32,000 bases of DNA from Parasynechococcus marenigrum WH 8102 (GTDB lineage: Bacteria > Cyanobacteriota > Cyanobacteriia > PCC-6307 > Cyanobiaceae), in NCBI RefSeq assembly GCF_000195975.1, contig NC_005070.1, positions 930,001-962,000 on the forward strand, given 5' to 3'. Positions 11,501 through 29,491 of this stretch are shown here, in pieces. A model generated the notes under the pieces. It ran no database searches and had not been told where the DNA came from. It saw nothing but the letters and a program-made list of their open reading frames with translations. Numbering within the stretch: the first letter of the stretch is position 1; the number at the start of each line of letters is the position of its first letter. A program made the position numbers and the translations under genes.

Positions 11501-14500
11501 GGCAGGAACGGACCTGAGCTACTTGATATTACTACTGATAATACCCAGAAGCAGTTTGTTCGTTTGTACTCTGCTATTGCTTCTTCACCTATTCTTTCTA
11601 ATACCTTTAATGAAGGTCGTGATCTACTTGTCCAGAGTGTTCTGGATCTTATTAATCCCCCTTCTCCATTACCCAACCGACTTGTTGATAATCTGAACGA
11701 TCTTTTTACTGAGAAGACTAGTTCTTTAGCCTCTTCTTTTGTTCTGCCCTCTGGTATTGCATTGTCTCCTGAAGGTTTAGATAGATTAAACCGAGTTACA
11801 AATTTGGTAGGTACGGGTGGTTCTTCTGACTTGTTAGCAGCCTCTGAATTTTCTACTAATACCCCTCAGCTATTAAATACTCTTAGTGACCAAAATATTA
11901 TCTCTGATACAGGGTCTCTTTTGAATAATTTTGGGCAGCCTGTATTGAGTGACGGTGAACCGCTTATTATCTCTGACTACCAATCATTGGTTAGTTCTTT
12001 TGTTGATACAAATCTCACTACATTTTCCGACGACTTCCTTGAGAATGATTCTATCTCGGGCGAATTAGCGCGTAACATTGTCCTCAATGAGATTTCTGAA
12101 CGAGTTGTTCAGGCTGCTGATTCATCTACGGTACCGGAAGTTATTAGTTCTACTCTAAATAATCTACTTGCTGCTGCCTTGCAGTTAGATCCTGTTGCTG
12201 AGGACGCTAAAACTGAGTCGAATCGTCTTCTTAAGATGGCTCTGAGTGTTGATTCTTTGGTTGAGCAGCGTCCCCTTTATGAAGTAGACGAGGCCACAGG
12301 TCAGCCCAAAACTGTTTTTGACCCGAGATCGAATACTGATGTGTTTGTTGTTAATGAGGAAAATCAGGCCTTTTATAATGCTGCACTTGAGCAGCAAGAT
12401 GTTTTACAGGCAGATTATGTTGGTCTTACCTTAGAGCAGTGGAAGGATATTGATAACCAACCTAATTCTGCTAAAGTTAAAGCTGACCGTATTAACGCTG
12501 TTAAGATAGGAATCTCTTATGCTGATTATCTTAATTTTGCGAACTTAAATCCTCTTGACTCTGAGGTTTGGTCTATTTATCCTTTTGTTGGTTACGTTGA
12601 GGCAGGTACATTTGATTCTGATGACTTCTTAGTTGTTGATAATCTCTTTGTTGACCCACAGGCAGCTCTCAATAATCTTATCTCAAGTGGGATTAACAAA
12701 GGTGTCAGCTTTGATGACTTCTCAAGTCTTCTCTTTAATCAGCCAATTTACACACCAAGTACAGTATCGTCTGATTCTGGTGCTGAGATTACACGTGCAG
12801 ATGCTATTACATATGCCTCTACTGATCCATCCAGTGCTCTTTATATTGCCGCAATGGACTCTAATTTCCAGGAGGGTAATGTTATTAAGGCATATAAGAC
12901 TACCAACCCCAACCCTTACAAATTTACTATTGAGGATTTTGATGACGCTAATTTACTTACCGATGGCCTTCAAGTTAGTTATCTTGTAAACTATACATAT
13001 GGTGATTTAGCTGTCGGTGATTCTGGTTATACCTTTAATGTTGCTTCTGGTTATTCACCAGATCTTGTTGGTCATGACTTAGATGAGTTTAATTTGGCCT
13101 TGAAATATGTTTCCGAATATGACTTATTAAGCTACGGTGCCACTCCTGTTGAGTCAAGTAATGATTTACCTGTTGAACCTGGTCAGCAAGTCTTTACATG
13201 GGAGTCTAACCCAGAAAATATAATTGATAAGTACGGACAGCAAAGTGCGCCACTTTATGATCTAGATGGACGTGTCATTACAAAAGCTGGTTGGTATGAC
13301 TTCACTCTTCGTCCAACAACTGAGACTGAATTTGATCCCGAATTAGAGGAGCAGGTGCCAGTTTGGCGTGACGGTGCTCGCTTTATTTATGCGGATTATT
13401 ATACTGTTGACGTCGGTAACTTCTTAACCGACAATGATCCTGCAAACGACGAACTATTAATACCAGCCAATAGCTGGTATGTACCTTCTCAATCTGACTT
13501 ACTTGAAGAGGAAGAGGGTGTTCTACCGGAAGGTGTCGCTTTTAGGCGTATTGTTGGTTTAGAGCTAAACTTTACAGACAACGCATTCGGAGATAAAGAC
13601 CCAGGCATTGGTCGAGTTGTTGACCCCTTTGGTACTGGTGCAAAGTCTAACTCTTCATCGCTGTTTACTTCTAACTTTACTTCAGACAATCTTTTCAACG
13701 AGGAACCACCTGATCCTAAATTTATTCTTAAAAGAAATGAGAAAAAAGTATTAAAGACTGCGGTAGTTTTAGATGAGACAAAAAAAGCTGTTGATCTCGA
13801 AGCAGTCGTTTTAGACGAGACTCAAAAGGCTGTTGATCTTGATGCTGTTTTGTTAGAGGACGATCAGGTAGCGGTCTCTCGTGATCTTCTTGTCACTGAT
13901 GAATTGTTTACTTCTGATGTTGACATGACAAATCTCCGCCTTGTTGATGAGAATGCTGTGATTCTTGCCCTCAATGAAAAGACTGTCGATATTGATGCGG
14001 TCATACTTGAGGACGATCAGATTGCTATTTCTCGTGATATTTTGGTTACTGACGAGTTATTTACATCTGATGTCGACCTAACTAATCTTCGTCTCGTCGA
14101 TGAAGATGCTGTTGTTCTTGAACCCACTCAGAAGGCAGTTGATATCGACGATGTTGTTTTATTAGACAATCAGATAGCAGTTGATGATGATGCTGTTATC
14201 CTAGATCCAACCGAAAAAGCTGTAGATATTAATGCAATCATTCTTCTGGATGATCAGGTTGCTTTCAATATTGATGATGTTCCTGTCTCTCTTGATGGAT
14301 TAAAACTTGTTCCTGATGATGCTGTTGTTCTGGATCCTAACCAGCAAGCAGTTGATGTCAACACGGAGATTCTTCAGCCTGATCAGAAGGCTGTACCGCT
14401 TGATGCGCCAGAAGTTGCCAATGACGCATCAGGTTCTGGTAAGTACAAGCAACCACCTTCTGATATTAAGCAATCCGGTTCCGGTGTAGATGCTCCTGGT

Positions 14501-15514: not shown

Positions 15515-16053
15515 ATTTTAGAATAGCGGCATATATTAGTTTCTTCCTTTATCTTGTATCATCTGCTTTAATTTTAGCTCATTTAGCTTATTTTCTTCTT
15601 TTTCTCTCTTTCGTCGCTAGTTACTTGTTGTTTTATGCCTTTTCAAGGTCTTTTATTTGTTCTGGCCTAATATTTGTTTTATACCGATTCGGCATGTTTT
15701 GTTATTTTAAATCCTAAACTTACCCGCGACGTTCTAATCCTTTGATATCTGTACATTGTATGATAGGCTGATGTTTGTTTTTTTCCTGTGCAACCACAGC
15801 ACTATTAACTATTTTTGAATAATTCTTATGATGTTACGGTCACTATATGGAGACTGCGATAATACCTTTTTAACGTCAAGTGAAGAGGCTTAGTCTTGTT
15901 ACAACTCCCCACAGTAACCATACCAAGTGCTTTGATTTTATTCCCAAAATTATTGATTACCTACTTAGTATTTTAATCTGCCTGACAATACTATATATTT
16001 TTTCTTGATTTGTTCTAGTTCTCATTCGTTCTTCTTGTTTTTGTGTATTATTT

Positions 16054-16536
16054 TCAACAGTGGTCTTTCAGTTCTCTCCTGATCTTTGGCACGGCGTCCG
16101 GCTGTCCTTGCATCAAGAAAGCTTCTCTTTCTATATCAAATTTCTCGCTTTCATAATTTCGATATAGGATTGACTCTATTGCTATTTTTACCGCTTCATC
16201 AACATTTGGCATCCATCCAATTGGCTGTAATGATCCTGTCCTACAGGTTTGCGCTGCATGAACAGCTTCATGTAAAAATGTTGTCCTAAAGATTCTCATT
16301 TGTTGTGTTATAGGTGCAATCCATATAACTTTCTTTTTTGTATTTATCAATCCGTAGGTACCTTGCATCGGCGGTTTCTCAAATTTGATTTTAAATCCAG
16401 CCTCTATCAATGACAATCTAAGTTCATTCAAGTCTTTTACTAGATCTATTTCTTCTGCCCTAGATGGATTTACTGTAGTTAGAGCCAAAAGCGATGCAAT
16501 TATGGCTGTCGAAATGTGTCTGTTAATATTTATCAT
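16054..16536 (-). CDS. Small secreted protein with HExxH motif (putative periplasmic Zn-metallopeptidase-like protein), last gene of the stator-like operon
   Basis: 160 aa. N-terminal signal-peptide-like segment MININRHISTAIIASLLALTTVNPSRA|EE. Motif FLHEAVHAAQ (HExxH followed by Q). ATG start (16534-16536) overlaps the upstream gene's TGA by 4 nt (ATGA). Same low GC as its neighbours. Confidence 0.65.
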   Translation of the reverse strand: MININRHISTAIIASLLALTTVNPSRAEEIDLVKDLNELRLSLIEAGFKIKFEKPPMQGTYGLINTKKKVIWIAPITQQMRIFRTTFLHEAVHAAQTCRTGSLQPIGWMPNVDEAVKIAIESILYRNYESEKFDIEREAFLMQGQPDAVPKIRRELKDHC

Positions 16537-17207
16537 TGAATTGTCATGCTACGGCCTGAATTACCCCAGAAATTGATAGGGTCATCTTTGTACCAGGGTT
16601 CCCAACCAATAGGAACTTTATTTTTTCTGGCAGATCGTTTTATCTCTCTGTACATCTTATACCCTGATGCTTCTAGTACTATGAAAACGGCTTGATTATT
16701 TGTGTTTAGGTTTTTCATTAGTGTGTCTAGCCAATCTCTCAATTCTTCACTCTCAGAGTCAATCGTAGGTTCTTGTGACCTTAGGATTTGTCCTTTCTCA
16801 TGATTGATTGTCATTGATATACCATTAATTTGCTCTTCCTTTTCCCATCCGTTTAATTTGCTATTGCAGATTTCTAGCTCTGGAGATAACAAGTTTTCAC
16901 AACTTCTTACCTCTTTGGCCCTCTCGCGGTCTAGTTCAGCCATTCTATTTATTGCAGGCTGTAAATCCCACACTCCTTCTTTTGCTGCTTGTAAAGTCCA
17001 GAATTGTTTCTTTGTTTCTTTTTTCATTGGCGCTTGTATATTGACTGCACTTGTTGCAGCGAAGACACCAGCAAGTGAGCTAACTAGCACAAGTACCCCA
17101 ACAACATTGCATAAGAGATCTAATAGGCTGTCTGAGCTGTCAGCTAACCCAGATGAACTTTTTTTGCCCTTTTTACGGAGAAGGATTTGTTTCTGTTCGG
17201 TATTCAT
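16533..17207 (-). CDS. ExbD/TolR-like single-pass membrane protein (long paralogue, 224 aa)
   Basis: Basic N-terminus (LLRKKGKKSS). Then an Asp at the start of one hydrophobic helix (SLLDLLCNVVGVLVLVSSLAGVFAA), as in the ExbD/TolR/MotB transmembrane Asp. The C-terminal part (..NQAVFIVLEASGYKMYREIKRSARKNKVPIGWEPW) resembles the ExbD periplasmic domain and that of the neighbouring paralogue. ATGA start/stop overlap at 17204-17207. No OmpA-like peptidoglycan-binding domain. Confidence 0.6.
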   Translation of the reverse strand: MNTEQKQILLRKKGKKSSSGLADSSDSLLDLLCNVVGVLVLVSSLAGVFAATSAVNIQAPMKKETKKQFWTLQAAKEGVWDLQPAINRMAELDRERAKEVRSCENLLSPELEICNSKLNGWEKEEQINGISMTINHEKGQILRSQEPTIDSESEELRDWLDTLMKNLNTNNQAVFIVLEASGYKMYREIKRSARKNKVPIGWEPWYKDDPINFWGNSGRSMTIQ

Positions 17208-17653
17208 TTGGGACTCTCCGGAAACTTAACTTTAAGTTCACTTTCGATTGGTTCGTAGCCATATTCTAACTTATTGAACTCTGCTTTCGATCTTAGTTTT
17301 TCAAAACAAAGATATCCTTCAGGTCGTACACCTATGATTATGTATTGGGGTGTTTCATCAGTTCCTAGGCTTTTTATGATGACATCTACTTTCTCATCGT
17401 TTATATTCATATCCATACTTTCGTTTCGGATTAACATGTTCATATTTCCCTCCTTATTGCATACAATATAATTTCCATTTTTACCTTTACCTTCTCCTCC
17501 GGCAGGCAGGAGTTTCACCACATTGACTCCTGGTTTAATTTGCAAAGCGAATATTACGAGTGTCAATGTCTGGACACCAATTGTTGCAGTCATTATGTTT
17601 AGGAACGATGACAGATCCATACCTGCGTCGCCCTTTTTTCTGCGTCTTCCCAT
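17204..17653 (-). CDS. ExbD/TolR-like single-pass membrane protein (short paralogue, 149 aa)
   Basis: MGRRRKKGDAGMDLSSFLNIMTATIGVQTLTLVIFAL has a basic N-terminus, an Asp, then one TM helix. The C-terminal part (..PQYIIIGVRPEGYLCFEKLRSKAEFNKLEYGYEPI) is paralogous to the 224-aa protein. Its ATG (17651-17653) overlaps the TAA of the MotA-like gene (TAATG). Confidence 0.6.
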   Translation of the reverse strand: MGRRRKKGDAGMDLSSFLNIMTATIGVQTLTLVIFALQIKPGVNVVKLLPAGGEGKGKNGNYIVCNKEGNMNMLIRNESMDMNINDEKVDVIIKSLGTDETPQYIIIGVRPEGYLCFEKLRSKAEFNKLEYGYEPIESELKVKFPESPK

Positions 17654-18966
17654 TATCTTGACCTAATTTTGTCCATAAGTATACCTATGCCAAATCCATT
17701 CCTTTCTCTTCTCATGTTCTTATTCAGCAGGTCAATGGATTCTTTCAATTCAATCAACGATCGTAATTGAGCTTTTTGATCTATACCGATCCTATTTTCA
17801 GCTAACAAGTCGCTTAGTTCACCGGCAAGCAAATTCATTGCATTTCTTATGATGTCAGTCTGTTCCTGTAAGCTTAGGCGTGCTTCACTCACTCCTTCTA
17901 CAGAATCTCTGACAATTGTTGTAAGTGGTGTTAGTTTTTCTATCGTTGCTTCCGTTAATTTTTCTGCATAAACCTGGGCTGGTTCTACCAGTACTGATGG
18001 ATCTGGTAGATGTTTTTCGAACGCATCGCTTATCAACCCTGCAATGTCGTCCCCAAAAATCTCTTTTGGTGTGGGTTTCTCTGGAGTTTTCTCTGATGTT
18101 CCACCGCCAGCACCACCTCCAGTCCCTTCTCCAGACTGTGACGCTATTTCACCGCTACCCAGAGGACTCAGTGATAAGACTCCATCTCTCACAACTCCGT
18201 CAATTTGGCTCAGTAATCTATCTTCAATCTTTTCACAAAGTGTGAGTGGGAATGCCAAAAATACTGATATTACCAGTGCTAGGAATGTTGTGTCGAACGC
18301 TGTACCAAGTCCCCCAGTAACTTGAACCAAGCCATCTTTTAGACCATCAACGTTGTCTGCGTTACTAAGAACGGCATCAAATGAACCAACAGCTTGGGAC
18401 ATTCCAATAACAGTTCCTATAAATCCAGTCAGTGGAATTGCCCATAATAATAGCTTTGGAAAACTAAAACTACTACTCATGGATAATTCGTAAAGATCAA
18501 CATCTCCATCGGCAGCTCGTTCCAGCTGAAACGCTGATCCTGTTGATTCCCATACATCCAATAGGTGTAGAAGTCGTTTACCGACGAGAGATCCAGAATT
18601 CTCAGATTTAAGTTTTATAGCCTCTAAATCACCTTGCCTTACTAAACTTGGTATTTCTAGATCAAATGCTAAATAATCTTTCTGTGCTTTTTGCAAAATG
18701 CGTAATTTGTTAAATAAGAACCACCCCAGCATTCCGCCCAATATGAGTGTTGCAACTTGGGTTGGTCCACGCTGATGAAAAAGGGCATGCCCTGGCATTG
18801 CGTCTGGAAAGTTCACCGCCCAGATCAAAAAGCCAGCAATCCCCCCGGTGATGATCCACCGACCGAATTTTGGATCAAGGTCATTGCCAAGGCCCAAGCT
18901 TACCGAAGGTACAGGTACGCTTCTGCTTCTTGCATCTGCTTCGAGTTGTCCTGTGGAGGTTGTCAC
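17653..18966 (-). CDS. MotA/TolQ/ExbB-family ion-channel protein with an extended C-terminal tail (437 aa)
   Basis: Four hydrophobic segments: WIITGGIAGFLIWAV, VATLILGGMLGWFLF, LLLWAIPLTGFIGTVIGM, TFLALVISVFLAFPLTL. Both family hallmark motifs are present (..PLTGFIGTVIGM.. and ..GGLGTAFDTTFLALVISVFLAFP..). These are followed by a Gly-rich linker GEGTGGGAGGGTSEKTPEKPTPKE and ~140 aa of probably helical sequence not found in canonical ExbB/TolQ. GTG start at 18964-18966. Confidence 0.8.
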   Translation of the reverse strand: MTTSTGQLEADARSRSVPVPSVSLGLGNDLDPKFGRWIITGGIAGFLIWAVNFPDAMPGHALFHQRGPTQVATLILGGMLGWFLFNKLRILQKAQKDYLAFDLEIPSLVRQGDLEAIKLKSENSGSLVGKRLLHLLDVWESTGSAFQLERAADGDVDLYELSMSSSFSFPKLLLWAIPLTGFIGTVIGMSQAVGSFDAVLSNADNVDGLKDGLVQVTGGLGTAFDTTFLALVISVFLAFPLTLCEKIEDRLLSQIDGVVRDGVLSLSPLGSGEIASQSGEGTGGGAGGGTSEKTPEKPTPKEIFGDDIAGLISDAFEKHLPDPSVLVEPAQVYAEKLTEATIEKLTPLTTIVRDSVEGVSEARLSLQEQTDIIRNAMNLLAGELSDLLAENRIGIDQKAQLRSLIELKESIDLLNKNMRRERNGFGIGILMDKIRSR

Positions 18967-19000
18967 TGTTCAGTTGATGTAATGTTGATTTGCTGATAGT

Positions 19001-19324
19001 TTACTTTTTTTCTGTATTCCATTCTTGCCATTCTACTTCTAACTCTCCAGCATCATTAGCTCCTGGTGCTGGAATCTTTGTTAGCAGTTCGTCTGGTAGT
19101 CCGAGACGTTGAAAGACCGTTTGTCTTTGTACCGCCGGCATTGCGGAAAACGACCTCACCACATCTCTTACTTTGTACTCTGAGTAGACCATTTTCATTA
19201 ATTCATCTTGATCCTCATCTGGAAGATTTTTAAACCAATTGACAAACTTTTCGGTTTTAGTTTTAAGGTCCATTTTCGGAGGGTTCAGCGGGGGCATCCC
19301 TCCAATTATAGCCCCTAATGTCAA
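19001..19324 (-). CDS. Hypothetical protein (up to 107 aa), sitting between the T1SS genes and the stator-like operon
   Basis: Open frame with island-like composition; 18-nt gap to the HlyD gene and 34-nt gap to the MotA-like gene. The start is ambiguous: TTG at 19324, ATG at 19297, ATG at 19273. Acidic and helical-looking (NLPDEDQDELMKMVYSEYKVRD). No recognisable family. Confidence 0.55.
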   Translation of the reverse strand: MTLGAIIGGMPPLNPPKMDLKTKTEKFVNWFKNLPDEDQDELMKMVYSEYKVRDVVRSFSAMPAVQRQTVFQRLGLPDELLTKIPAPGANDAGELEVEWQEWNTEKK

Positions 19325-19342
19325 GCAGTCCCCAGCTCTAGT

Positions 19343-20503
19343 TTACTTACTTGATTTTATTCTAGTAAGCGAATCTAAGGCCTTTTGTACCGCATCTGTT
19401 AGTAATGATATGACCCGCTTATCTCTAAGAATGAGATTCACTTGTACACTTTGGCCCGCACTGATTTCGTATTTTTCTCCATCTTTTTCAAGATAGTCCT
19501 TGTCAATCTTCACGTATGCCGGGAACCTAGGCATTGGATTTTGTTGATCTGGTTCTAGTGGAAGTGTCCCCACTGACTTCAAGGACCCTGTAATTGATCC
19601 AAATTGTGTATACGGAAAAGCATCGACCCTTATTTGGGCTTTCATTCCAGGCTTCATAAAACCAACATCTTGATTAGTAATGTATATTTTTGCCTCGATT
19701 TCCCCTCCTGGGACAACTTTTACGAGTGTCTCTCCCGCCGAAGCCGCATACCCTGCGCTTGATGGAATCATCCCATAGACAATTCCTGCAATCGGTGCGC
19801 TCAATTTTTCTTTTGTTATCGTATCCTGAACTTCAACCATTTGCCGTTCTAGTTCTGATATTTCACGCAGGGATTCTTGTTTTAGTTTGTTGAGCTGTGC
19901 TTCTACTTCCTCCAAGTCCGCTTTTACAACTTGTGCCTCTGACTCCAGTTGTTCTACTTTATTCCTTTGCCTTAGCAGCTCTGTTAGTTGCATTGCGCCA
20001 ATCTCTGCTAAGGGTATGATATTTGTATATATACTTGATTCTGTATTTAACGATCTATTTATACCATTTAATCGCTCGACTACTCCTCTCTTTCTAGCCT
20101 CGACAGCTCTCGACTCTTCTTCAAATCTTTTTCTTTCGAGCTTTATTTGTGTTTCTAATGTTTCTTTTCTCTTTCGAGATACGTCTGCGTCAAATCTCAA
20201 TAAGGTGTCTCCTGCATTAACTTTTTGCCCCTCCTTAGCTACAATATCCTTAATTACTCCCCCGAATGGTGCTTTGACTGGTCTTTCAGCACCCAGCGGT
20301 TGTAATTCTCCAGGAGCCAGTACTACTTCGTCAATTTTTGCAAATACAGCAAATATAAATCCGAGTGATGCTGTCGAAATAATGGTCCATGCCAGAGCCT
20401 TGCTCCAAAGAGGTGCCGGCCTTAGTTGTACTTCTTGATGATTGAGTGGCCTTACAGCCAGACTTGAGTTGGTTTTTGGGCTATTTGAATTTGAGGTAGT
20501 CAT
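19343..20503 (-). CDS. HlyD-family membrane fusion (periplasmic adaptor) protein of a type I secretion system
   Basis: 386 aa. N-terminal TM ALAWTIISTASLGFIFAVFA. Lipoyl-like motif VKAPFGGVIKDIVAKEGQKVNAGDTLLRFD. Long coiled-coil stretch (KRKETLETQIKLERKRFEEE...LEEVEAQLNKLKQESLREISELERQ). Second lipoyl half LSAPIAGIVYG and a beta-barrel end. ATG at 20501-20503, 2 nt after the ABC gene stop. Confidence 0.85.
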   Translation of the reverse strand: MTTSNSNSPKTNSSLAVRPLNHQEVQLRPAPLWSKALAWTIISTASLGFIFAVFAKIDEVVLAPGELQPLGAERPVKAPFGGVIKDIVAKEGQKVNAGDTLLRFDADVSRKRKETLETQIKLERKRFEEESRAVEARKRGVVERLNGINRSLNTESSIYTNIIPLAEIGAMQLTELLRQRNKVEQLESEAQVVKADLEEVEAQLNKLKQESLREISELERQMVEVQDTITKEKLSAPIAGIVYGMIPSSAGYAASAGETLVKVVPGGEIEAKIYITNQDVGFMKPGMKAQIRVDAFPYTQFGSITGSLKSVGTLPLEPDQQNPMPRFPAYVKIDKDYLEKDGEKYEISAGQSVQVNLILRDKRVISLLTDAVQKALDSLTRIKSSK

Positions 20504-20505
20504 TT

Positions 20506-23500
20506 TTAGGATTCTTGTTGGTGGTAAAGTGTTGCATAGCGGCCATCCAATGCCATAAGTTCTTCATGAGTACCTTTTTCAACTAATGCCCCTTGATCCA
20601 TTACAAGAATAACATCAGCAAATTTGAGAGATGCCAATCTATGAGTTATAAAGAAAACGGTGCTATCCTTATACAATTCTATCAGATTTGCCGTTAATCT
20701 TCTTTCAGTGTCTACATCAAGAGCACTTGTTGCTTCATCTAGTACTAGTAATCTTGGTCTCCTGATTATCATTCTTGCTATTGCCATTCTTTGTCTTTGT
20801 CCTCCACTCATTCCAGCTCCTCTTTCCCCTACGGAGCTGTTGTAGCCGGCGGGCATAGCTTGAATAAATTCGTGTGCACAGGCAATTTGTGCTGCTACTA
20901 CAACTTCCTCAAATGATGCATCAGGCCTTGCTAACGCAATATTTGACATTACTGACCCGTCGAACAACAGACTATCTTGTGGTACTACACCGATTTGCGA
21001 TCTTAAGGAGTAGAGATCTACTTTGCTAATGTCATTATCGTCTATGAGAATTTGGCCATCGTTTATTTCGTATAACCTTGTTAGCATTTTCAACATTGTG
21101 CTTTTGCCAGAGCCACTACTTCCCACGACCCCAATGAATGAACCTTGTTCAATTTTGAAATTAATGTTTGATAGATTAAGTGCTCCTTCCTTCCCAAATC
21201 TAAAGTTAACACCTTTATATTCCACTGTTCCTACTATGGGAGGTATTGGTGGCTTTTGTTCTCCAGTAATTTCTAATTCTTGGGGATGATCTACGATATC
21301 AGCCAGTCTCTCTAACGATAATGCAGTTTCTTGAAAATTTTGCCATAAGTTTGCCATCCTAAGCAAAGGACTTGTCACGTAACTTGCTAGGATTCTGAAG
21401 GCAATTAATTGTCCAAGTGTTAGTTCACCTTTTAATACTAGTGAGGCTCCAATCCACAAAACAATAAGTCCTGAAAGCTGTTCAAGAAACTGACTTGCTG
21501 ATCCGGCCGCTGTGCTTGTTACGGTGTTCCTAAAACCCGATGTTATCTGACCTCCGTAGAGCTGTTGCCATCGCCACCGACTATGAATTTCCATACTCTG
21601 GCCCTTAATGGTTTCCATTCCTCCAACGGTCTCAACTAAGTGACTTTGTACCCGAGCGTTAGCTTCAGCCTGTTCTCTAAGTTGCTTTCGTATGATTGGT
21701 GCTGATACTAATGTCAACCCCACAAATAATGGAACTACTACTAATGACCATACTGTTAATTGGACTGAGTAAAGTAACATAACAGCAATGTAGATGATTG
21801 CAAAAATTGCATCTAACACTACCGTTAGCGCTGTTCCGGTCAAAAACTGTCTTATTTTTTGTAGTTCATTGATTCTGCTGCTTACTTCACCGACTGGTCG
21901 ATCTGAAAAGTAACCTAATGGAAGCCTAAGTAGGTGATCGATGATTGATGAACCTAATGAGATATCGATTCGATTTGTAGTATCTGCAAATAGGTATGTC
22001 CTTAGCGAAGATAATACCGCTTGAGCTAGACTCATGCCTATTAACAATGTTCCAAGCACATTAAGGCTGCTAACATTTCCTTGGCTGATCACAGCATCTA
22101 TTATTTGTTGTATCAAAAGTGGATTTAATAATCCAAATAGTTGTACAAAAAAACTGGCGACTAGAACCTGAATAAGGACTGCTTTATGTTCTTTTAAAGC
22201 TGGTATAAACCATCCCAACCCAAATCGTTTCTTAGGTGATACTTTGCTTCTTTGAATCGTTAAAACCTGTATTGTTCCATCATCGTTTCTAGCACCTAAG
22301 TCTTTTGTTGAAACTTTTATTTGTCCTTCTTCGGGGCAACTGATCAGTGCTTGGCCAACCATGTCCGCTGACCATAATATTATTGGTTTATTCTTACGTA
22401 TTGCTATTGCAGGTAATTGTAAACGCCCTATCTGGTTTTCCGTTACATTTATTTGTGTTGCTCTAAGGCCAATTAAGTCAGCAGTAGCAGCAAGTTGAAT
22501 CAAACCAATTGATCTTTCTCCCGTTTCTGATAATTCATTTCTCATCAATTGATCTTCAATTATTCTCTGTATTACATCTTTTCTAAAAGGTATATCAAAG
22601 TATCTCGCAAGCATTCTTAATGCAGCCATTGGAATCCCTACAGGTCCAGACCCATCCAACTGTGGAAAGCTCCCGTCATCGCCAAGCTTTCCATACCAAT
22701 CTTCAAGAGCCTCCTGCTGTTTTTCTACTGCAACTATTGCTGTGCTGCTTTCTTGCCAGTCAGGTTCTACGACTTCAGCCTCAATTTGGAGAGGTGCAGC
22801 CTCGCTAGAGTCTGGGCTTACGACTAATACTTGTGGGACATTGATTGGAGGTGTAGCTCCACTTTTAGAGATTAATCTTGCAGGAACTTTCCCTTGAACT
22901 ATTAACTTCATTGGTCCAAGTAATTCTTCACCTGGCTTGCATCCAGAAATGTTTGAACTGCTTACCAACCACGGCCCCCATTTAGAATCAACAAAGTGTT
23001 CACCTGGAGGTAGTAATAATATTTTGTGATCTCCTTTTGATTCTGCTATTTTGTTGCTTGCCCAGTCTTTTATCTCGTTTTTCGTGTTATTTAGAGGCGA
23101 ATTTGTTAATATACTAACTCCATACAATTCTTCAATGTTAGGTTCAAGAAATTCATTTGCAAATTCTGCGTTTTCCGCTATTACTTGCAGAAATCCAGTT
23201 TGAGGAAGCAGCCATAGCAAGCTTGGCTGCGATGCGGCTAATGCATAACCAGTTACCCCCCTGAGGATTCCAATATGTCCAGCTTGATCTCCTGGAGCTA
23301 ATCTATATAGTGTGAAAGGTTCTTCTCTTTCATCTAATGCAAGCAATCTCATCTGACCCTCTGCTATGAGGGCTATCCCTGGAGGAAGGTCTGAAAAATC
23401 ATATAATTTTTGACCCGGACGTAATCGTAATGGTTGAATTGTTTCTGCTAGTTTTGCCTTTTGCTCTGTTGATAGTTTTGAGAAAGGCGCCCAGGAGTTG

Positions 23501-23529
23501 ATTAGGCGCAATGCCTGTCTTAATTGCAT
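20506..23529 (-). CDS. Type I secretion ABC exporter with N-terminal cyclic-nucleotide-binding-like domain and a degenerate (non-catalytic) C39-like domain
   Basis: 1007 aa. Residues ~1-130 are a cNMP-binding-type beta-barrel (LRLRPGQKLYDFSDLPPGIALIAEGQMRLLALDEREEPFTLYRLAPGDQAGHIGILRG). Residues ~290-440 are a C39-like fold (GPVGIPMAALRMLARYFDIPFRKDVIQRI) with no Cys or His at the catalytic positions. Then a six-helix exporter TMD, Walker A GSSGSGKST, ABC signature MSGGQRQR and Walker B LLVLDEATS. Confidence 0.9.
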   Translation of the reverse strand: MQLRQALRLINSWAPFSKLSTEQKAKLAETIQPLRLRPGQKLYDFSDLPPGIALIAEGQMRLLALDEREEPFTLYRLAPGDQAGHIGILRGVTGYALAASQPSLLWLLPQTGFLQVIAENAEFANEFLEPNIEELYGVSILTNSPLNNTKNEIKDWASNKIAESKGDHKILLLPPGEHFVDSKWGPWLVSSSNISGCKPGEELLGPMKLIVQGKVPARLISKSGATPPINVPQVLVVSPDSSEAAPLQIEAEVVEPDWQESSTAIVAVEKQQEALEDWYGKLGDDGSFPQLDGSGPVGIPMAALRMLARYFDIPFRKDVIQRIIEDQLMRNELSETGERSIGLIQLAATADLIGLRATQINVTENQIGRLQLPAIAIRKNKPIILWSADMVGQALISCPEEGQIKVSTKDLGARNDDGTIQVLTIQRSKVSPKKRFGLGWFIPALKEHKAVLIQVLVASFFVQLFGLLNPLLIQQIIDAVISQGNVSSLNVLGTLLIGMSLAQAVLSSLRTYLFADTTNRIDISLGSSIIDHLLRLPLGYFSDRPVGEVSSRINELQKIRQFLTGTALTVVLDAIFAIIYIAVMLLYSVQLTVWSLVVVPLFVGLTLVSAPIIRKQLREQAEANARVQSHLVETVGGMETIKGQSMEIHSRWRWQQLYGGQITSGFRNTVTSTAAGSASQFLEQLSGLIVLWIGASLVLKGELTLGQLIAFRILASYVTSPLLRMANLWQNFQETALSLERLADIVDHPQELEITGEQKPPIPPIVGTVEYKGVNFRFGKEGALNLSNINFKIEQGSFIGVVGSSGSGKSTMLKMLTRLYEINDGQILIDDNDISKVDLYSLRSQIGVVPQDSLLFDGSVMSNIALARPDASFEEVVVAAQIACAHEFIQAMPAGYNSSVGERGAGMSGGQRQRMAIARMIIRRPRLLVLDEATSALDVDTERRLTANLIELYKDSTVFFITHRLASLKFADVILVMDQGALVEKGTHEELMALDGRYATLYHQQES

Positions 23530-23647
23530 TTATCAAATTTGACCTTTCAACGTTAGCACATAGGTATATTACTTAGCAGTAATTTTTTTGTTTGTCAGTA
23601 CAATCTAACGCAGAGGCTCGTCTGTCTTCTTTGCTACTGAATTATTT

Positions 23648-24373
23648 TCACATCGTCTTCTGGGACACTATATCTCTTGACTTCTTCAGTTCTTCTGCTA
23701 GGAGTTCCTCGCCCAGTTCCGACAATATTTTCAACCTCTCTTCTTTGTTGAAGACTGCCGGCCAGAGTTTTTCACTTATAACGATTCCCCATCCGTTTTC
23801 AATTTTTATTGGCGGCCATACTTGTTTGGGTTGACTAATCCTTAGCAATTCAGCAAGTGCATCAGGTAACTCTTGTAGTTTAACTGGTCCAACCCTACCG
23901 ATTTTTAATCCCTGAGGAGGATTTGTCGAGAGTAGAATAGCATCATCAACGGAGCATTCTCCCTCTTTGATGCGAACAAATACTTCGCCAGCAAACGCTT
24001 CGTCATCTATCCATATCATTGAGTAGCTAACTTTGTCTAACTTTGCCTTTTCTTTTAGGAATTTTGTTGCAGCTTGGTTTTTGAACTTCTTTTCGCAAAC
24101 TTTAATCCATCTATAATATCTTGTTGCCCTTGTTAGTAACGATTCCTTGTCTACGTTCTCGCTCCTCATCCATTTCGCAAGTTCTTCTTGGGTATAGATG
24201 TTCATGCTACTTAAATATACTTGTATTACCTCTTCCTCCGATGCGTCTAGTGTTATTTCCGTCTCGATCAATTCATCAAGTACTAGTTCTCGTTTTATGG
24301 AGCCTTCGATGCCCCATCTTTTCAGATCTTCAGGATTTATAGCTTTTGTGCTCACTTGGTGCTTTGCCGACAC
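23648..24373 (-). CDS. Parvulin/PpiC-type peptidyl-prolyl isomerase-like protein (SurA-like accessory gene of cyanobacterial T1SS clusters), first gene of the array
   Basis: 241 aa, GTG start (24371-24373). The C-terminal half follows the parvulin pattern: VSYSMIWIDDEAFAGEVFVRIKEGECSVDDAILLS....G.IGRVGPVKLQELPDALAELLRISQPKQVWPPIKIENGWGIVISEKL. The functional call is by-eye only; the CDS itself is solid. Confidence 0.55.
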   Translation of the reverse strand: MSAKHQVSTKAINPEDLKRWGIEGSIKRELVLDELIETEITLDASEEEVIQVYLSSMNIYTQEELAKWMRSENVDKESLLTRATRYYRWIKVCEKKFKNQAATKFLKEKAKLDKVSYSMIWIDDEAFAGEVFVRIKEGECSVDDAILLSTNPPQGLKIGRVGPVKLQELPDALAELLRISQPKQVWPPIKIENGWGIVISEKLWPAVFNKEERLKILSELGEELLAEELKKSRDIVSQKTM

Positions 24374-25320
24374 TTGACGTATTTTAATTATCCTAGCAAA
24401 TAGGGTGTTGATTTCATTTGTTTATTTCTCTATTCACCTTTTGCTTGGGTTTGTTCACTTCTTTTTTGTTTCCGTCCTGTTCTGTTAGAGGAACTTTATT
24501 TTTTGCACTGTATGAGCGTGTTTTTTAGTTTTTTATCTCTTTTGGTATTGGCGCCTGACTAATAAACCTGATTTATTAACTCTTTTTTGTATTGATTGTT
24601 TTTTCTTAGTCTTTTTCCCGACCTTTTCTTCACTATCTAGATAAAGTACCTTATCGTTTGGTTTTCTCTTTTTCCCCTGCCTTTTTGAAATTTCTTGTAG
24701 TTTCTTTTGGTTTCGCAGCTGACTTTCTTTTTGCCGCAATAAATTTTCCTCTTCGGTTCTTGCATGTGTGTAAATATTTTGCAGTTTTTCTTTTCATTTC
24801 TGTATCTCTTGTTTCCTTGATATGCGTTTATTTGCTATTTATTGCTCTTTCTATTGTGGTTGCAGGTCTATTATTCCAAGGATTTTGTGCTGTTTTTTGT
24901 CGTGTATTGATGTTGCTCTGTTTTGTCTTTTTTCTTGAGTGCAGTTTCTGCGACATGCTCTATGAGGTTCTGTTTCTTGTTTGTCTGTGATTGTCCTGGT
25001 CTTGATCCCTTCTATTTGTTTCTCGTTTCTTTCGTTAATGTCTCCAAGGTATGATTTAAGTTTACTCTTGTTTTAGTGTTTCCTTTTTGGTTTCTACTTA
25101 ATTGATTCTTTCACCTCCCTGTGAATGTATCTTGCGTCGTTCGTAGAACGTTTGATTGACTTTTCGATCGCTTTATTTTTGTCTGCCTAAGTTTTTGGGT
25201 GCTTATAGGCTGAAGGCTTTTCGGTGATGTCTAATTCCTTCCTTTCTTGAGTCATGGTAATTCTATTGTATCGCTTTGATTCCCAGTCGCTGATTTATTT
25301 TGGATCGGTTGGTTTCAACT
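24374..25320. promoter_or_regulatory. ~950-bp non-coding, strongly T-skewed spacer between malQ and the secretion/stator array; probable promoter and 5'-leader region and island edge
   Basis: No credible ORF on either strand; only low-complexity F/L-rich (+) or K-rich (-) frames. A 60-nt spot count at 24421-24480 gave T=35, A=4. No specific -35/-10 pair could be assigned with confidence. Confidence 0.3.
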
Positions 25321-26859
25321 CTAATTTTTTGTCATGTGCTTGGCTCCATTTTTGGAGCGTCCCCAGATCGATCCTCTTTCTCCAAAACCCTGAAGTGCAC
25401 CTTCCACGTTTTTATCAAAGTTCGGTTGACGCCAGTTCCAATTTCCTGTGGATGTCCCTGGTGTGTTGAAACGAGCTGAATCATCTAAGTGAAGCAGATC
25501 CTGCAGTGGGGCGACGACCAGTTCTGCCGATGTTGCAAATGCCATGTCGAGCAACTGCCAAGCCGGTGCGTTCACTGCTCCATTGATTCGACATGTGATT
25601 CGGTTGCGGCTGTCCTGATCAAGTGTGTTCCACCAGCCCAGTGTAGTCGGGTTGTCGTGGGTGCCGGTGTAGACCACCCAACGTCGTCCCTCGATATTTT
25701 CAGGCAGGTATGGGTTGTCGGCCTGTCCATCGAAGGCAAATTGAAGCACTTTCATCCCTCGCAATTTAAAGTTATCGCGTAGCTCCTCTACATCGGGTGT
25801 GATGACCCCTAGGTCTTCAGCAATTAAAGGTAATTCTCCATTGCCATCTTGACGAAGCTTCTTCAGCAGCTCGTTTCCCGGAGACGGCTGCCACTGTCCG
25901 TTTTTAGCTGTCTTGTCTGCTCCGGGGACTGCCCAGTAGGCAGCTAGTGCTCGAAAGTGATCGAGTCGCAACAGGTCCGCTAGCTGGCGTTGTCGTGTGA
26001 ATCGCTGTCTCCACCATCTATAGCGCGTTAAGCGATGTCGTCCCCAGCGATAAACCGGTGAACCCCAGAGCTGTCCGCTTTCGGAGAAGTAGTCAGGAGG
26101 TACGCCACTTTGGGTTGTGAGTTCACCGTTCTCCTTGATGGTGAATAAGTGACGATTGCTCCAGACATCAGCGCTGTCTGCACTGACATAGAACGGCAGA
26201 TCTCCGAACAGTATGACGCCTTTCTCTCGTGCTAGCTCCCTGATTGCATTCCACTGTTGATCCAAGTGCCATTGCTGCAGCTTGATGGCCAGCAGTGCAT
26301 CGGCATGATCACGTTTCCATTCACGCAGCGCCTTGCGGTTGTTACTTGCAAGCCCATCAGGCCAGGTCCACCAGGCTTCACCCTGCTGTTCATGCAGAAC
26401 GCTGAAGCAGGCGTGAGCTTCCAGCCACGGCTGTTTTTTGCACCAACGTTCAAACGTCTGGTGATGATTGGTCGGCTGCTTCGGCCATCCTTTGAGCAGT
26501 GTTTGGGCAAGGGCGCCGCTTCGCTGTTGGGCCAGGCCAAAGTCCAATCTCTCGACGCCACTGCTTGGTTCACTCGCTCCAGGTAAGTCTTGGCAATCCT
26601 GCTCACTGATGAAGCCATCCCGGCGAAGTTCCTCGGCATCAAGAAACCAGGGATTCAGCGCGAAGCTGGAGGGTGAGTTGTAAGGCGAGCCGGTTCCGTC
26701 AGGAGGTGCAAGTGGCAGAAGTTGCCACACGCCGATGTTGTTGTCCGCCAGCAGATTGATCCAACGGCGGCATGGTTCTCCGAAGCTTCCGCAGACTGCA
26801 CTCCCAGGAAGTGCTGTGGGATGTAGAAGCACCCCTGTGCTTCGGGATGGAGTCGTCAT
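25321..26859 (-). CDS. malQ: 4-alpha-glucanotransferase (amylomaltase, GH77)
   Basis: 512 aa. GH77 hallmarks: GVLLHPTALPG, SPYNSPSSFALNPWF, LFGDLPFYV, RLDHFRALAAYWAVP, IAEDLGVITPDV, YTGTHDNPT, NTPGTSTGNWNWR. ATG at 26857-26859. Confidence 0.92.
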   Translation of the reverse strand: MTTPSRSTGVLLHPTALPGSAVCGSFGEPCRRWINLLADNNIGVWQLLPLAPPDGTGSPYNSPSSFALNPWFLDAEELRRDGFISEQDCQDLPGASEPSSGVERLDFGLAQQRSGALAQTLLKGWPKQPTNHHQTFERWCKKQPWLEAHACFSVLHEQQGEAWWTWPDGLASNNRKALREWKRDHADALLAIKLQQWHLDQQWNAIRELAREKGVILFGDLPFYVSADSADVWSNRHLFTIKENGELTTQSGVPPDYFSESGQLWGSPVYRWGRHRLTRYRWWRQRFTRQRQLADLLRLDHFRALAAYWAVPGADKTAKNGQWQPSPGNELLKKLRQDGNGELPLIAEDLGVITPDVEELRDNFKLRGMKVLQFAFDGQADNPYLPENIEGRRWVVYTGTHDNPTTLGWWNTLDQDSRNRITCRINGAVNAPAWQLLDMAFATSAELVVAPLQDLLHLDDSARFNTPGTSTGNWNWRQPNFDKNVEGALQGFGERGSIWGRSKNGAKHMTKN

Positions 26860-26900
26860 TTTTGCCGTCGGAGCTCCGATCTGATCTCAGCATGGCTGCG

Positions 26901-27929: not shown

Positions 27930-27985
27930 GGTGCTCGGGACTGGACAACTGGGCGAAACTAGGCGCCGTAGCCCGCCTGGGGACG

Positions 27986-29459: not shown

Positions 29460-29491
29460 CGGATTACAGCAAACTTCGTCCCGCGGGCGCC

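What the first reader, a model, noticed from the sequence alone, without database searches (positions are those of the whole stretch)
16054..24373. Eight co-directional genes with 1-4 nt overlaps or gaps of at most 118 nt: one secretion-plus-stator transcription unit co-acquired with the giant gene
**Seen in sequence.** The junctions along the minus strand are:
- parvulin-like to ABC: 118 nt;
- ABC to HlyD: 2 nt;
- HlyD to 107-aa ORF: 18 nt;
- 107-aa ORF to MotA-like: 34 nt;
- then three overlaps.

All eight genes share the AT-rich composition of the giant gene and differ sharply from the flanking core DNA. No outer-membrane factor (TolC-like) is encoded here.

**Inference.** The giant protein, its dedicated T1SS and the stator-like module form a single functional and evolutionary unit.

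**From memory, not verifiable here.**
- The order (giant gene, eight small genes, malQ, divinyl reductase) fits what I recall of the swmB locus of Synechococcus sp. WH8102.
- I recall transposon hits in the neighbouring ABC/HlyD-type transporter genes abolishing swimming.
- I do not recall the MotA/ExbB-ExbD-like genes being functionally characterised.
Basis: partly seen in the sequence, partly recalled or inferred. Interest (0 to 1): 0.72.

Follow-up and report, generated by a model that had tools for sequence, protein, structure and literature searches.

The report
SwmB export operon with TolQR-like motor
Next to the giant swimming protein gene swmB of the marine cyanobacterium Synechococcus WH8102 lies a conserved eight-gene operon that joins a protein-export pump to a small ion-driven motor of the TolQ/TolR type, which makes that motor a testable candidate for what powers or controls this still unexplained form of swimming.

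Summary
Eight minus-strand ORFs (24373..16054) have gaps of 118, 2, 18 and 34 nt, then overlaps of 1, 4 and 4 nt. They have 35-44% G+C, like the giant gene, against 62-65% in the flank.

Five proteins match Synechococcus WH8102 entries exactly (SYNW0954, 0955, 0958, 0959 and malQ). By gene numbering the giant gene is swmB.

The operon encodes, in order:
- a parvulin-like protein;
- a HlyB-type ABC exporter with a cNMP-binding domain and a Cys-less C39-like domain;
- a HlyD adaptor;
- a conserved ~90-aa protein, apparently unannotated;
- a divergent MotA/ExbB-family protein with a coiled-coil tail;
- two paralogous single-pass proteins, one with an invariant membrane Asp, the other with a TolR/ExbD-like fold;
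- a secreted HExxH protein.

All eight keep their order in 12 picocyanobacterial loci, marine and freshwater. Every locus that reaches downstream (7 of 7) has a convergent cadherin-like gene ending in the same rare C-terminal domain.

The functional unit is therefore supported, with corrections:
- swmB is convergent, so it is a separate transcript;
- the "stator" is Tol/Exb-like, not MotB-like;
- the module is old and usually beside malQ, not a one-off acquisition.

The closest analogue is Salmonella SiiAB-SiiCDF-SiiE. A role as the swimming motor is untested.

The parts
1..15514 (+). 3' half (about 5,170 codons) of the giant gene swmB. It holds cadherin-like, Big_9 and SWM repeats. It runs off the left end of the window and is convergent with the operon.
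   Evidence: The reading frame is open from base 2. Pfam matches: Cadherin_5, Cadherin_4, Big_9 and SWM_repeat. Identity as SwmB follows from gene numbering around exact WH8102 protein matches.
14753..15511 (+). Conserved 253-aa C-terminal domain of the giant protein. It starts RGLxLQP..NLLDALTLGxGxLYxLYGP and ends QASMAxLVELSLAL.W. It is the presumed recognition or secretion module for the adjacent T1SS.
   Evidence: It aligns with the C-termini of the convergent genes in L002, L006 and L007 (two genes) and is present in L012-L015. Only 79 cluster representatives among 1.84 billion proteins carry it, in nearly all cases ending within a few residues of the protein's C-terminus. The last 1170 aa have no Pfam or RTX match.
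15515..16053 (.). 539-nt spacer between the two convergent stop codons. It is T-rich on the + strand (46% T).
   Evidence: No terminator-like site was found by the simple scan.
16054..16536 (-). Gene 8 (SYNW0954): a small exported protein with a signal peptide and an invariant HEAVH motif, a putative periplasmic metallopeptidase.
   Evidence: Alignment A6 shows invariant H89, E90 and H93, a conserved EREAF motif and two conserved Cys. It matches DUF6782 ('putative metallopeptidase') below threshold in 4 of 7 orthologues, best E 3.7e-4. Exact match to CAE07469.
16533..17207 (-). Gene 7 (SYNW0955): a TolR/ExbD-like B subunit. It has a basic N-terminus, one membrane helix with an invariant Asp30 (SSDGLLDxLxNVVGV) and a 150-aa periplasmic alpha/beta domain.
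   Evidence: Asp30 is invariant in 34 homologues. One membrane helix at residues 31-49. The AlphaFold2 periplasmic domain has pLDDT 80-95. Its C-terminal beta-alpha-beta unit is homologous to gene 6 (hhalign probability 86%, E 5e-6). Foldseek against the PDB is inconclusive: TolR is rank 7 with E 0.17.
17204..17653 (-). Gene 6 (SYNW0956): the second TolR/ExbD-like B subunit. It has a basic N-terminus and one membrane helix. Position 13 is Asp in 27 of 34 homologues and Asn or Ser in the other 7. Asn19 is invariant.
   Evidence: The best PDB fold match of its model is E. coli TolR (5by4): E 2.8e-3, probability 1.00, TM-score 0.58 on the target. ExbD (8vgc) gives TM-score 0.61. N-terminal alignment. 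Membrane helix at 17-35.
17653..18966 (-). Gene 5 (SYNW0957): a divergent MotA/ExbB/TolQ-family A subunit of 437 aa, with a ~190-aa cytoplasmic C-terminal tail (Gly-rich linker, a highly conserved segment, then coiled coil).
   Evidence: Pfam PF01618 scores 29.3 bits against a cut-off of 22.9, and nearly all listed homologues carry PF01618. Invariant motifs are GFIGTVIGM and GLGTAFDTT. The tail matches only coiled-coil proteins in the PDB, and no solved ExbB, TolQ, MotA or ZorA matches at E<=1. Only weak, generic ZorA matches were found.
19001..19324 (-). Gene 4: a conserved small soluble protein, probably 90 aa starting at Met18 (19273). Function unknown. It has no slot in the original WH8102 gene numbering.
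   Evidence: Alignment A9 has 36 invariant columns across 7 loci. No membrane helix. No family match. The accession order CAE07470 to CAE07473 leaves room only for the 149-aa and 437-aa genes.
19343..20503 (-). Gene 3 (SYNW0958): the HlyD-family periplasmic adaptor of the T1SS.
   Evidence: Pfam HlyD_3 at 1.8e-18 and TIGR01843 at 2.9e-46. Exact match to CAE07473.
20506..23529 (-). Gene 2 (SYNW0959): a HlyB-type T1SS ABC exporter with an N-terminal cyclic-nucleotide-binding domain and a C39-like domain that lacks the catalytic Cys.
   Evidence: TIGR01846 scores 700 bits (cut-off 725). Pfam matches to ABC_membrane, ABC_tran, cNMP_binding (26 bits) and Peptidase_C39 (17.6 bits). There is no Cys between residues 198 and 397. 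Exact match to CAE07474, tagged SYNW0959.
23648..24373 (-). Gene 1: a parvulin (PpiC)-like protein without a signal peptide, a putative cytoplasmic chaperone or isomerase for the substrate.
   Evidence: Rotamase_2 matches in 6 of 6 orthologues, best E 5.7e-5. Weak matches to TIGR04500 and SurA. Alignment A7.
24374..25320 (-). 947-nt non-coding leader upstream of the operon. It is 50% A on the operon's sense strand and has no credible ORF.
   Evidence: L002 has a 985-nt spacer with the same composition but no detectable sequence similarity.
25321..28037 (-).
   Evidence: Glyco_hydro_77 at 2.8e-140 and NAD_binding_10/NmrA. malQ is an exact match to CAE07477.

Best explanation
The eight genes are one operon in Synechococcus WH8102. 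It encodes a dedicated type I secretion system for the convergently encoded giant cadherin-like surface protein SwmB, together with an ion-driven TolQ/TolR-type (5:2-class) inner-membrane motor and three accessory proteins.

Proposed mechanism:
- The cytoplasmic parvulin-like protein and the Cys-less C39-like domain of the ABC exporter handle the unfolded substrate.
- The substrate is recognised through its conserved, non-RTX C-terminal domain.
- The ABC exporter and HlyD adaptor, with a TolC-like outer-membrane channel encoded elsewhere, thread it out.
- The MotA/ExbB-like protein forms the outer ring of the motor. The two TolR-like proteins sit inside it, probably as a heterodimer in which the 224-aa subunit carries the ion-binding Asp.
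- The motor converts the ion gradient into mechanical work on the secretion conduit or on the retained giant protein. SiiAB does something comparable for the giant adhesin SiiE in Salmonella.
- The secreted HExxH protein may process or release the surface protein.

Shown here: gene order, domain identities, conservation of the whole set with its substrate, the invariant Asp, and the TolR-like fold of one partner. Inferred: complex formation, stoichiometry, ion flow, what the motor acts on, and the roles of genes 1, 4 and 8.
For: Tight junctions, and no internal minus-strand terminator-like site. The junctions between the motor genes remain within a few nucleotides in other assemblies. The family assignments are: HlyB-type ABC exporter, HlyD adaptor and MotA_ExbB above Pfam's cut-off. 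The C39-like domain lacks Cys. All eight genes are syntenic in 12 of 12 picocyanobacterial loci down to 36-56% identity. A convergent cadherin-like gene with the same C-terminal domain follows in 7 of 7 loci that reach that far, including one locus with two such substrates. That domain is rare (79 representatives in 1.84e9) and almost always at the C-terminal end. Gene 7 has Asp30 invariant in 34 homologues. The best PDB fold match of gene 6 is TolR, with ExbD also matching. Genes 6 and 7 are paralogues. Precedent: SiiAB is a MotAB/ExbBD/TolQR-like proton channel that belongs to the SPI-4 T1SS for the giant adhesin SiiE (bioRxiv 10.1101/641415).
Against: No transcript data are available. The 118-nt and probable 69-nt gaps could hold internal promoters. 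The A subunit is very divergent: its profile matches no solved ExbB, TolQ, MotA or ZorA at E<=1, and the Pfam match is only 29 bits. The TolR fold match for gene 6 is modest (E 2.8e-3, TM-score 0.43/0.58), and the match for gene 7 is not significant. The Asp of gene 6 is replaced by Asn or Ser in 7 of 34 homologues, so a canonical two-Asp axle is not guaranteed. No TonB/TolA-like force transducer and no outer-membrane channel is encoded in the locus. SwmB secretion through this T1SS has not been shown in any source I could read.
Confidence: 0.65

Rival explanations
1. The TolQ/TolR-like trio is itself the engine of non-flagellar swimming. It would use the sodium or proton gradient to move or strain SwmB at the cell surface, through the T1SS conduit or the cell wall. 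This is analogous to GldLM driving the adhesin SprB in Flavobacterium, or AglRQS driving the Glt complex in Myxococcus. The T1SS would be the assembly route.
For: The module is adjacent to swmB and co-conserved with SwmB-like genes. One A subunit with two TolR-like B subunits is the AglR/AglQ/AglS pattern (PMC9389320). Reviews still list the motor and energy source of Synechococcus swimming as unknown (PMC7004002). [quoted passage not shown] From my memory only: swimming depends on sodium (Willey et al. 1987).
Against: The complete module with a smaller cadherin-like substrate also occurs in Cyanobium, Vulcanococcus and freshwater Synechococcus MAGs. Swimming has been reported only for marine clade III (PMC7522525). 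The ancestral function is therefore not swimming. There are no experimental data on these three genes. Non-motility of mutants would also follow simply from loss of SwmB export.
Confidence: 0.15
2. The motor genes form an independent Tol-Pal or TonB-type envelope system that merely sits next to the T1SS genes. It would have no functional link to the giant protein.
For: The fold of gene 6 is TolR/ExbD-like. ExbB-ExbD-ExbD gene triplets exist in other bacteria (general knowledge).
Against: The genes have 1-4-nt overlaps and sit in the middle of the operon, between the HlyD adaptor/gene 4 and gene 8. The order is invariant across 12 loci at about 50% protein divergence. No TolA, TolB, Pal or TonB gene is in the locus. 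The A subunit has a unique conserved tail not seen in solved ExbB or TolQ.
Confidence: 0.05
3. The cluster is a peptide or bacteriocin maturation-and-export system (C39 ABC exporter, HlyD adaptor and a PpiC-related maturation protein). The giant gene would be an unrelated neighbour.
For: Weak matches of gene 1 to TIGR04500 ('putative peptide maturation system protein'). The ABC exporter also matches NHLP-type and bacteriocin-type exporter models.
Against: The best ABC model is HlyB-type T1SS (700 bits against 397 for the NHLP type). The C39-like domain has no catalytic Cys. There is no precursor-peptide ORF. The co-conserved neighbour is always a large protein with the same C-terminal domain.
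Confidence: 0.03

Closest known systems
Salmonella SPI-4 SiiABCDEF: T1SS SiiCDF, giant adhesin SiiE, and the MotAB-like proton channel SiiAB
   Same: A T1SS dedicated to one giant, repeat-built, non-RTX surface adhesin. The same operon also encodes a MotA/ExbB/TolQ-like polytopic protein and a single-pass partner with an essential membrane Asp (bioRxiv 10.1101/641415).
   Different: SiiA has an OmpA/MotB-type peptidoglycan-binding domain. Here there are two partners, with a TolR/ExbD-like fold or a novel alpha/beta fold and no OmpA match. There is no outer-membrane channel gene in this locus. Extra conserved genes are present (parvulin-like, 90-aa protein, HExxH protein). The ABC exporter has a cNMP-binding domain. 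The substrate gene is convergent and carries its own C-terminal domain. No sequence-level link to SiiA was found: the profiles of genes 6 and 7 matched no motor-related PDB chain. SiiB itself could not be compared.
ExbB-ExbD (TonB) and TolQ-TolR (Tol-Pal) 5:2 motors
   Same: The A subunit is in Pfam MotA_ExbB. The B subunit has a short basic N-terminus, one helix with an Asp near the cytoplasmic face, and a TolR/ExbD-like periplasmic domain.
   Different: No TonB/TolA, TolB or Pal partner is present. The A subunit has a MotA-like layout: two weaker N-terminal hydrophobic segments (read by eye from the alignment; not flagged by the hydropathy scan) plus two clear helices. It also has a ~190-aa coiled-coil tail, and no solved ExbB or TolQ is detectable by profile. 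The genetic context is a T1SS.
Myxococcus AglR-AglQ-AglS gliding motor
   Same: One MotA/TolQ-like protein with two different TolR-like single-pass proteins, linked to surface motility and large envelope-spanning machinery (PMC9389320).
   Different: No Glt-type partners are present. Here the link is to a T1SS and a single giant protein. Homology beyond the family level was not tested.
[quoted passage not shown]
   Same: The concept is the same: an ion-driven 5:2 motor serves both secretion and the movement of a giant surface adhesin. The A subunit has a long cytoplasmic tail (PMC9389320).
   Different: The secretion system is unrelated (T9SS against T1SS). GldM has a long four-domain periplasmic shaft. 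There is no sequence relationship.
Pseudomonas LapA/LapBCE/LapG/LapD adhesin system (from my own knowledge, not checked here)
   Same: A T1SS for a giant repeat adhesin, a periplasmic protease that controls its retention, and control by a cyclic nucleotide.
   Different: LapG is a cysteine protease and LapD senses c-di-GMP. Here the candidate is a small HExxH protein, and the nucleotide-binding domain is fused to the ABC exporter. The Lap system has no motor.

Membership tests
Type I secretion system (HlyB/HlyD type) | Inner-membrane ABC exporter of the HlyB type with an N-terminal C39-like domain | tested here: met
   TIGR01846 at 2.7e-210 (700 bits, just under the 725 cut-off). Pfam ABC_membrane and ABC_tran. 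A weak C39 match, with no Cys in residues 198-397.
Type I secretion system (HlyB/HlyD type) | Periplasmic adaptor (membrane fusion protein) encoded next to the ABC gene | tested here: met
   HlyD_3 at 1.8e-18 and TIGR01843 at 2.9e-46 (below cut-off). The gap to the ABC gene is 2 nt.
Type I secretion system (HlyB/HlyD type) | TolC-like outer-membrane channel | tested here: not met
   None of the eight products and no neighbour in the related loci matches an OEP family. Many T1SS use a channel encoded elsewhere, so this does not exclude membership.
Type I secretion system (HlyB/HlyD type) | Substrate with an uncleaved C-terminal secretion signal, and RTX repeats in the classical group | tested here: inconclusive
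   A conserved C-terminal domain is always at the end of the linked giant proteins, but no RTX/HemolysinCabind match was found. Secretion through this system has not been shown.
MotA/ExbB/TolQ - MotB/ExbD/TolR ion-driven 5:2 motors | A subunit belonging to the MotA_ExbB family | tested here: met
   PF01618 at 29.3 bits against a cut-off of 22.9, with precomputed PF01618 on nearly all listed homologues. However, no solved A subunit is detectable by profile.
MotA/ExbB/TolQ - MotB/ExbD/TolR ion-driven 5:2 motors | B subunit: single-pass, with a conserved membrane Asp near the cytoplasmic face, encoded directly downstream of A | tested here: met
   Gene 7 has Asp30 invariant in 34 sequences. In gene 6, Asp13 is replaced by Asn or Ser in 7 of 34. 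The junctions are 1-4-nt overlaps.
MotA/ExbB/TolQ - MotB/ExbD/TolR ion-driven 5:2 motors | Periplasmic domain of the B subunit with a TolR/ExbD fold (Tol/Exb branch) | tested here: met
   For gene 6 the top PDB match is TolR 5by4 (E 2.8e-3, probability 1.00), and ExbD 8vgc gives TM-score 0.61. Gene 7 is inconclusive but shares the C-terminal unit with gene 6.
MotA/ExbB/TolQ - MotB/ExbD/TolR ion-driven 5:2 motors | OmpA-like peptidoglycan-binding domain on the B subunit (MotB/PomB/SiiA branch, i.e. a true 'stator') | tested here: not met
   No OmpA-family match for genes 6 or 7 in Pfam, NCBIfam or PDB profiles. No OmpA-like fold is among the top Foldseek matches.
MotA/ExbB/TolQ - MotB/ExbD/TolR ion-driven 5:2 motors | 5:2 assembly and ion conduction | not testable with these tools
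   This needs multimer modelling, purification or a pH/ion-flux assay.
Zorya (ZorAB) anti-phage system | ZorA with a long tail plus ZorB, matching the curated models, with ZorC/D/E partners | tested here: not met
   Only generic membrane-region matches: 14.5 bits against a cut-off of 100 in NCBIfam, and E 1e-3 in PADLOC. There are no ZorB or ZorC-E matches.
swmB locus of Synechococcus sp. WH8102 | Identity of the encoded proteins with WH8102 entries, and the gene order swmB, eight genes, malQ, reductase | tested here: met
   Five exact protein matches to WH8102 CAE/WP entries, including one tagged SYNW0959. Gene order.

The most novel reading that the evidence does not exclude
[quoted passage not shown] They would have been recruited from an older system that controls a giant adhesin through its T1SS. 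They would transmit force to SwmB at the cell surface through the T1SS conduit.
Probability: 0.15. Interest if true: 0.9.

Novelty: new variant of a known kind. Interest (0 to 1): 0.62.

Why it matters
Swimming without flagella in marine Synechococcus has been known since 1985. Reviews still list only SwmA and SwmB as components and give the energy converter as unknown (PMC7004002). A conserved TolQ/TolR-type motor sits in the operon directly linked to swmB. It offers three small, specific genes and one point mutation (Asp30 of SYNW0955) with which to test whether an ion-driven 5:2 motor powers or gates this motility.

Independently of swimming, the locus extends the SiiAB idea beyond Salmonella. 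A T1SS for a giant adhesin that carries its own ion-driven motor turns out to be an old, complete and widely retained module in picocyanobacteria. It has a recognisable substrate tag, the C-terminal domain, which can be used to find its cargo proteins in other genomes.

Tried and rejected
- **Zorya-like defence system: rejected.** Only generic membrane-region matches were found, and no partner genes.
- **Flagellar-type MotB or SiiA-type peptidoglycan anchor: rejected.** No OmpA-like match by sequence or fold.
- **RTX-type substrate: rejected.** No RTX match in the last 1170 aa.
- **C-terminal helix of SwmB (NLLDALTLGGGILYALYAP) as an inner-membrane anchor, or a TolR-like Asp helix plugging into the motor: not pursued.** Its hydropathy is below the threshold that detects the real membrane helices. 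Its orientation would also be opposite to TolR.
- **Internal terminators or promoters splitting the operon: none found.** The simple scan gave nothing beyond chance.
- **Known RNA families in the long A-rich leader: none.**
- **Reading the McCarren & Brahamsha 2005, 2007 and 2009 papers to check the transposon hits: not possible.** The papers are not held. Searches for the SYNW gene numbers found nothing useful.
- **Profile of the A subunit against the PDB: only coiled-coil matches.**
- **Remote MotA-like hits in Bradyrhizobium and Mediterranea (L009-L011): set aside.** They have no T1SS genes nearby.

Full report
**Observation**

The window holds eight co-directional minus-strand ORFs between 24373 and 16054. 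G+C is 0.35-0.46 from base 1 to about 25000 and rises to 0.61-0.66 beyond 26500. The giant ORF is on the + strand, is open from the first bases of the window and ends at 15514. It is therefore convergent with the eight genes and cannot share their transcript. A simple scan finds no terminator-like site on the minus strand within the cluster, and promoter-like sites occur at chance level (22 against 23.3 +/- 4.6). This is compatible with one operon but does not prove it.

One correction concerns the 107-aa ORF. It is conserved only from Met18 onwards and is called at 90-96 aa in other assemblies. Its true gap to the HlyD gene is therefore probably 69 nt rather than 18.

**Locus identity**

Exact-sequence look-ups place the window in Synechococcus (Parasynechococcus marenigrum) WH8102:
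- the 160-aa protein is CAE07469;
- the 224-aa protein is CAE07470;
- the HlyD adaptor is CAE07473;
- the ABC exporter is CAE07474, tagged 84588.SYNW0959;
- malQ is CAE07477.

Counting from SYNW0959, the eight genes fall within SYNW0954-0961, malQ is SYNW0962 and the giant gene is SYNW0953, which is swmB (NP_897046 in PMC4949707). The accession series leaves no slot for the small ORF between the HlyD adaptor and the MotA-like gene, so that gene was apparently not annotated originally.

**What the eight genes encode**

| Gene | Coordinates | Product | Key evidence |
|---|---|---|---|
| 1 | 23648-24373 | Parvulin-like protein, no signal peptide | Rotamase_2 in 6 of 6 orthologues, best E 5.7e-5 |
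| 2 | 20506-23529 | HlyB-type T1SS ABC exporter | TIGR01846, 700 bits; N-terminal cNMP-binding domain; C39-like domain with no Cys between residues 198 and 397, so not a peptidase |
| 3 | 19343-20503 | HlyD-family adaptor | |
| 4 | 19001-19273 (ORF listed to 19324) | Strongly conserved soluble ~90-aa protein, no family match | |
| 5 | 17653-18966 | MotA/ExbB-family protein | see below |
| 6 | 17204-17653 | TolR/ExbD-like single-pass protein | see below |
| 7 | 16533-17207 | TolR/ExbD-like single-pass protein | see below |
| 8 | 16054-16536 | Exported protein with invariant HEAVH and conserved EREAF | weakly like the putative metallopeptidase family DUF6782 |

Gene 5 matches Pfam MotA_ExbB above the curated cut-off (29.3 against 22.9 bits). 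Its invariant motifs are GFIGTVIGM and GLGTAFDTT. Its ~190-aa cytoplasmic tail resembles only coiled coils. Its profile finds no solved ExbB, TolQ, MotA or ZorA at E<=1, so it is a very divergent member of the family.

Genes 6 and 7 each have a short basic N-terminus and one membrane helix. They share a homologous C-terminal beta-alpha-beta unit (hhalign probability 86%, E 5e-6). Gene 7 carries an Asp (SSDGLLDxLxNVVGV) that is invariant in 34 homologues. In gene 6 the corresponding Asp13 is Asn or Ser in 7 of 34, while Asn19 is invariant.

An AlphaFold2 model of gene 6 has E. coli TolR as its best PDB fold match (5by4; E 2.8e-3, probability 1.00, TM-score 0.58). ExbD is also matched (8vgc; TM-score 0.61). 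The larger periplasmic domain of gene 7 is confidently modelled but has no significant PDB match; TolR is rank 7 with E 0.17. Neither protein has an OmpA/MotB-type domain. No TolC-like protein is encoded in the locus.

**Related loci**

A scan of species-representative genomes, together with look-ups of metagenomic contigs, gave 12 picocyanobacterial loci. They come from marine Synechococcus, Cyanobium, Vulcanococcus and freshwater Synechococcus.

- In all 12 the genes present are in the same order, at 36-93% amino-acid identity.
- In all 7 loci that extend downstream there is a convergent cadherin-like gene whose last ~250 residues are homologous to the end of SwmB. One locus (L007) has two such genes in tandem.
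- This C-terminal domain has no Pfam or RTX match.
- It is rare: 79 representatives among 1.84 billion clusters. It almost always lies at the very end of the protein.

The same loci argue against a recent one-off acquisition. malQ lies directly upstream or within about 3.5 kb in four loci (L002, L006, L012, L013), spanning marine and freshwater genera. The module's G+C is 0.34-0.41 in the single-cell marine Synechococcus genome L002, as in WH8102. In Cyanobium, Vulcanococcus and UW140 it is 0.56-0.65, close to or only moderately below their flanks.

**Mechanism**

The best-supported reading is a dedicated T1SS for SwmB-type giant proteins that carries its own ion-driven motor of the TolQ/TolR (5:2) class. 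The precedent is Salmonella SPI-4. There, SiiA and SiiB form a MotAB/ExbBD/TolQR-like proton channel with an essential membrane Asp. That channel belongs to the T1SS SiiCDF for the 595-kDa adhesin SiiE and is needed for adhesin function. How it acts is still unknown (bioRxiv 10.1101/641415).

This system differs from SPI-4 in several ways:
- it has two TolR-like partners, the AglR/AglQ/AglS pattern (PMC9389320), instead of one MotB-like partner;
- the A subunit has a long conserved tail;
- the ABC exporter has a cyclic-nucleotide-binding domain;
- there are three extra conserved accessory genes;
- the substrate carries a distinctive C-terminal domain.

Complex formation, stoichiometry, ion flow and the target of the force are all inferred, not shown.

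**Swimming**

SwmB is required for swimming, and reviews still give the motor and energy source as unknown (PMC7004002). [quoted passage not shown] A TolQR-like motor in the swmB-linked operon is therefore an obvious candidate. Against this, the complete module also occurs in lineages where swimming has not been reported. Swimming is described only for marine clade III (PMC7522525). The module's ancestral role is more likely control of a giant surface protein. I give the 'engine of swimming' reading about 15%.

**Novelty**

The locus, swmB and the generic ABC and HlyD annotations are known. I found no paper that combines swmB or WH8102 swimming with ExbB. In a wider search pairing swmB with stator, MotA, TolQ or ExbD terms, none of the 15 top-ranked of 2,118 papers mentions swmB. 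Two recent surveys of 5:2 motors mention neither cyanobacteria nor SiiAB. I cannot exclude a description in papers that are not held. I class this as a new variant of a known kind: a T1SS with an integrated ion-driven motor, of which SiiAB is the prototype.

Noticed in passing
window 24374-25320 (also L002:3616-4600 and L012:4253-4634): The ~950-nt non-coding stretch upstream of the operon is 50% A and only 15% T on the operon's sense strand, and has no credible ORF and no Rfam match. L002 has a 985-nt spacer of the same composition but no detectable sequence similarity. L012 has a 382-nt spacer with 43% A. The freshwater loci have only short, ordinary spacers. The spacer after the operon (15515-16053) is also A-rich on the same strand. 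The purpose is unknown (long leader, or a nucleoid- or RNA-binding platform?).
   Followed up: partly
window 19001-19324 (minus strand): This small gene between the HlyD adaptor and the MotA-like gene has no slot in the original WH8102 accession series, yet it is among the best conserved of the set (36 invariant columns across 7 loci). Its likely start is Met18, giving 90 aa.
   Followed up: yes
window 17653-18966 (minus strand): The MotA-like protein is annotated as only 362 aa in Synechococcus BOUM118 (hit P0043 covers 83% of the query). The missing ~75 N-terminal residues are strongly conserved (LGLGNDLDP..., plus two hydrophobic segments) down to 53% identity. The shorter gene models are probably mis-started.
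   Followed up: partly
L007:11113-15621 and L007:15634-18963: The freshwater Synechococcus UW140 MAG has two tandem convergent substrate genes (1502 aa and at least 1109 aa), each ending in the conserved C-terminal domain. One export/motor operon may therefore serve more than one cargo.
   Followed up: partly
window 1-2300 (+ strand): The window opens inside a run of near-identical ~115-aa tandem repeats of SwmB (SQTLSYGASGAGTFSLGKDGSNNNKLVFTINTEADYLQNDQE...). This is the kind of repeat that leaves assembly gaps in swmB of other strains (PMC7522525).
   Followed up: no
window about 13700-14450 (+ strand): Just upstream of the Gly/Asp-rich linker and the C-terminal domain, SwmB has an acidic repeat block (…AVVLDETKKAVDLEAVVLDETQKAVDLDAVLLEDDQVAVSRDLLVTDELFTSDVD…) with no Pfam match. 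It is not an RTX nonapeptide, but it might bind Ca2+.
   Followed up: no
window 25321-26859 (malQ) versus 26901-28037: malQ, which abuts the AT-rich block, has lower G+C than its neighbour (about 0.47-0.57 rising along the gene). Between WH8102 and L002 it is much more divergent (76% identity) than the adjacent reductase (93%). This suggests that the recombination boundary of the variable region lies within or at malQ.
   Followed up: no
window 27986-31613: The high-GC right flank encodes ordinary core functions: a LytR_cpsA_psr family protein, ribose-phosphate pyrophosphokinase and a GHL10 glycosyl-hydrolase-like protein. This confirms that the AT-rich block ends at malQ.
   Followed up: yes
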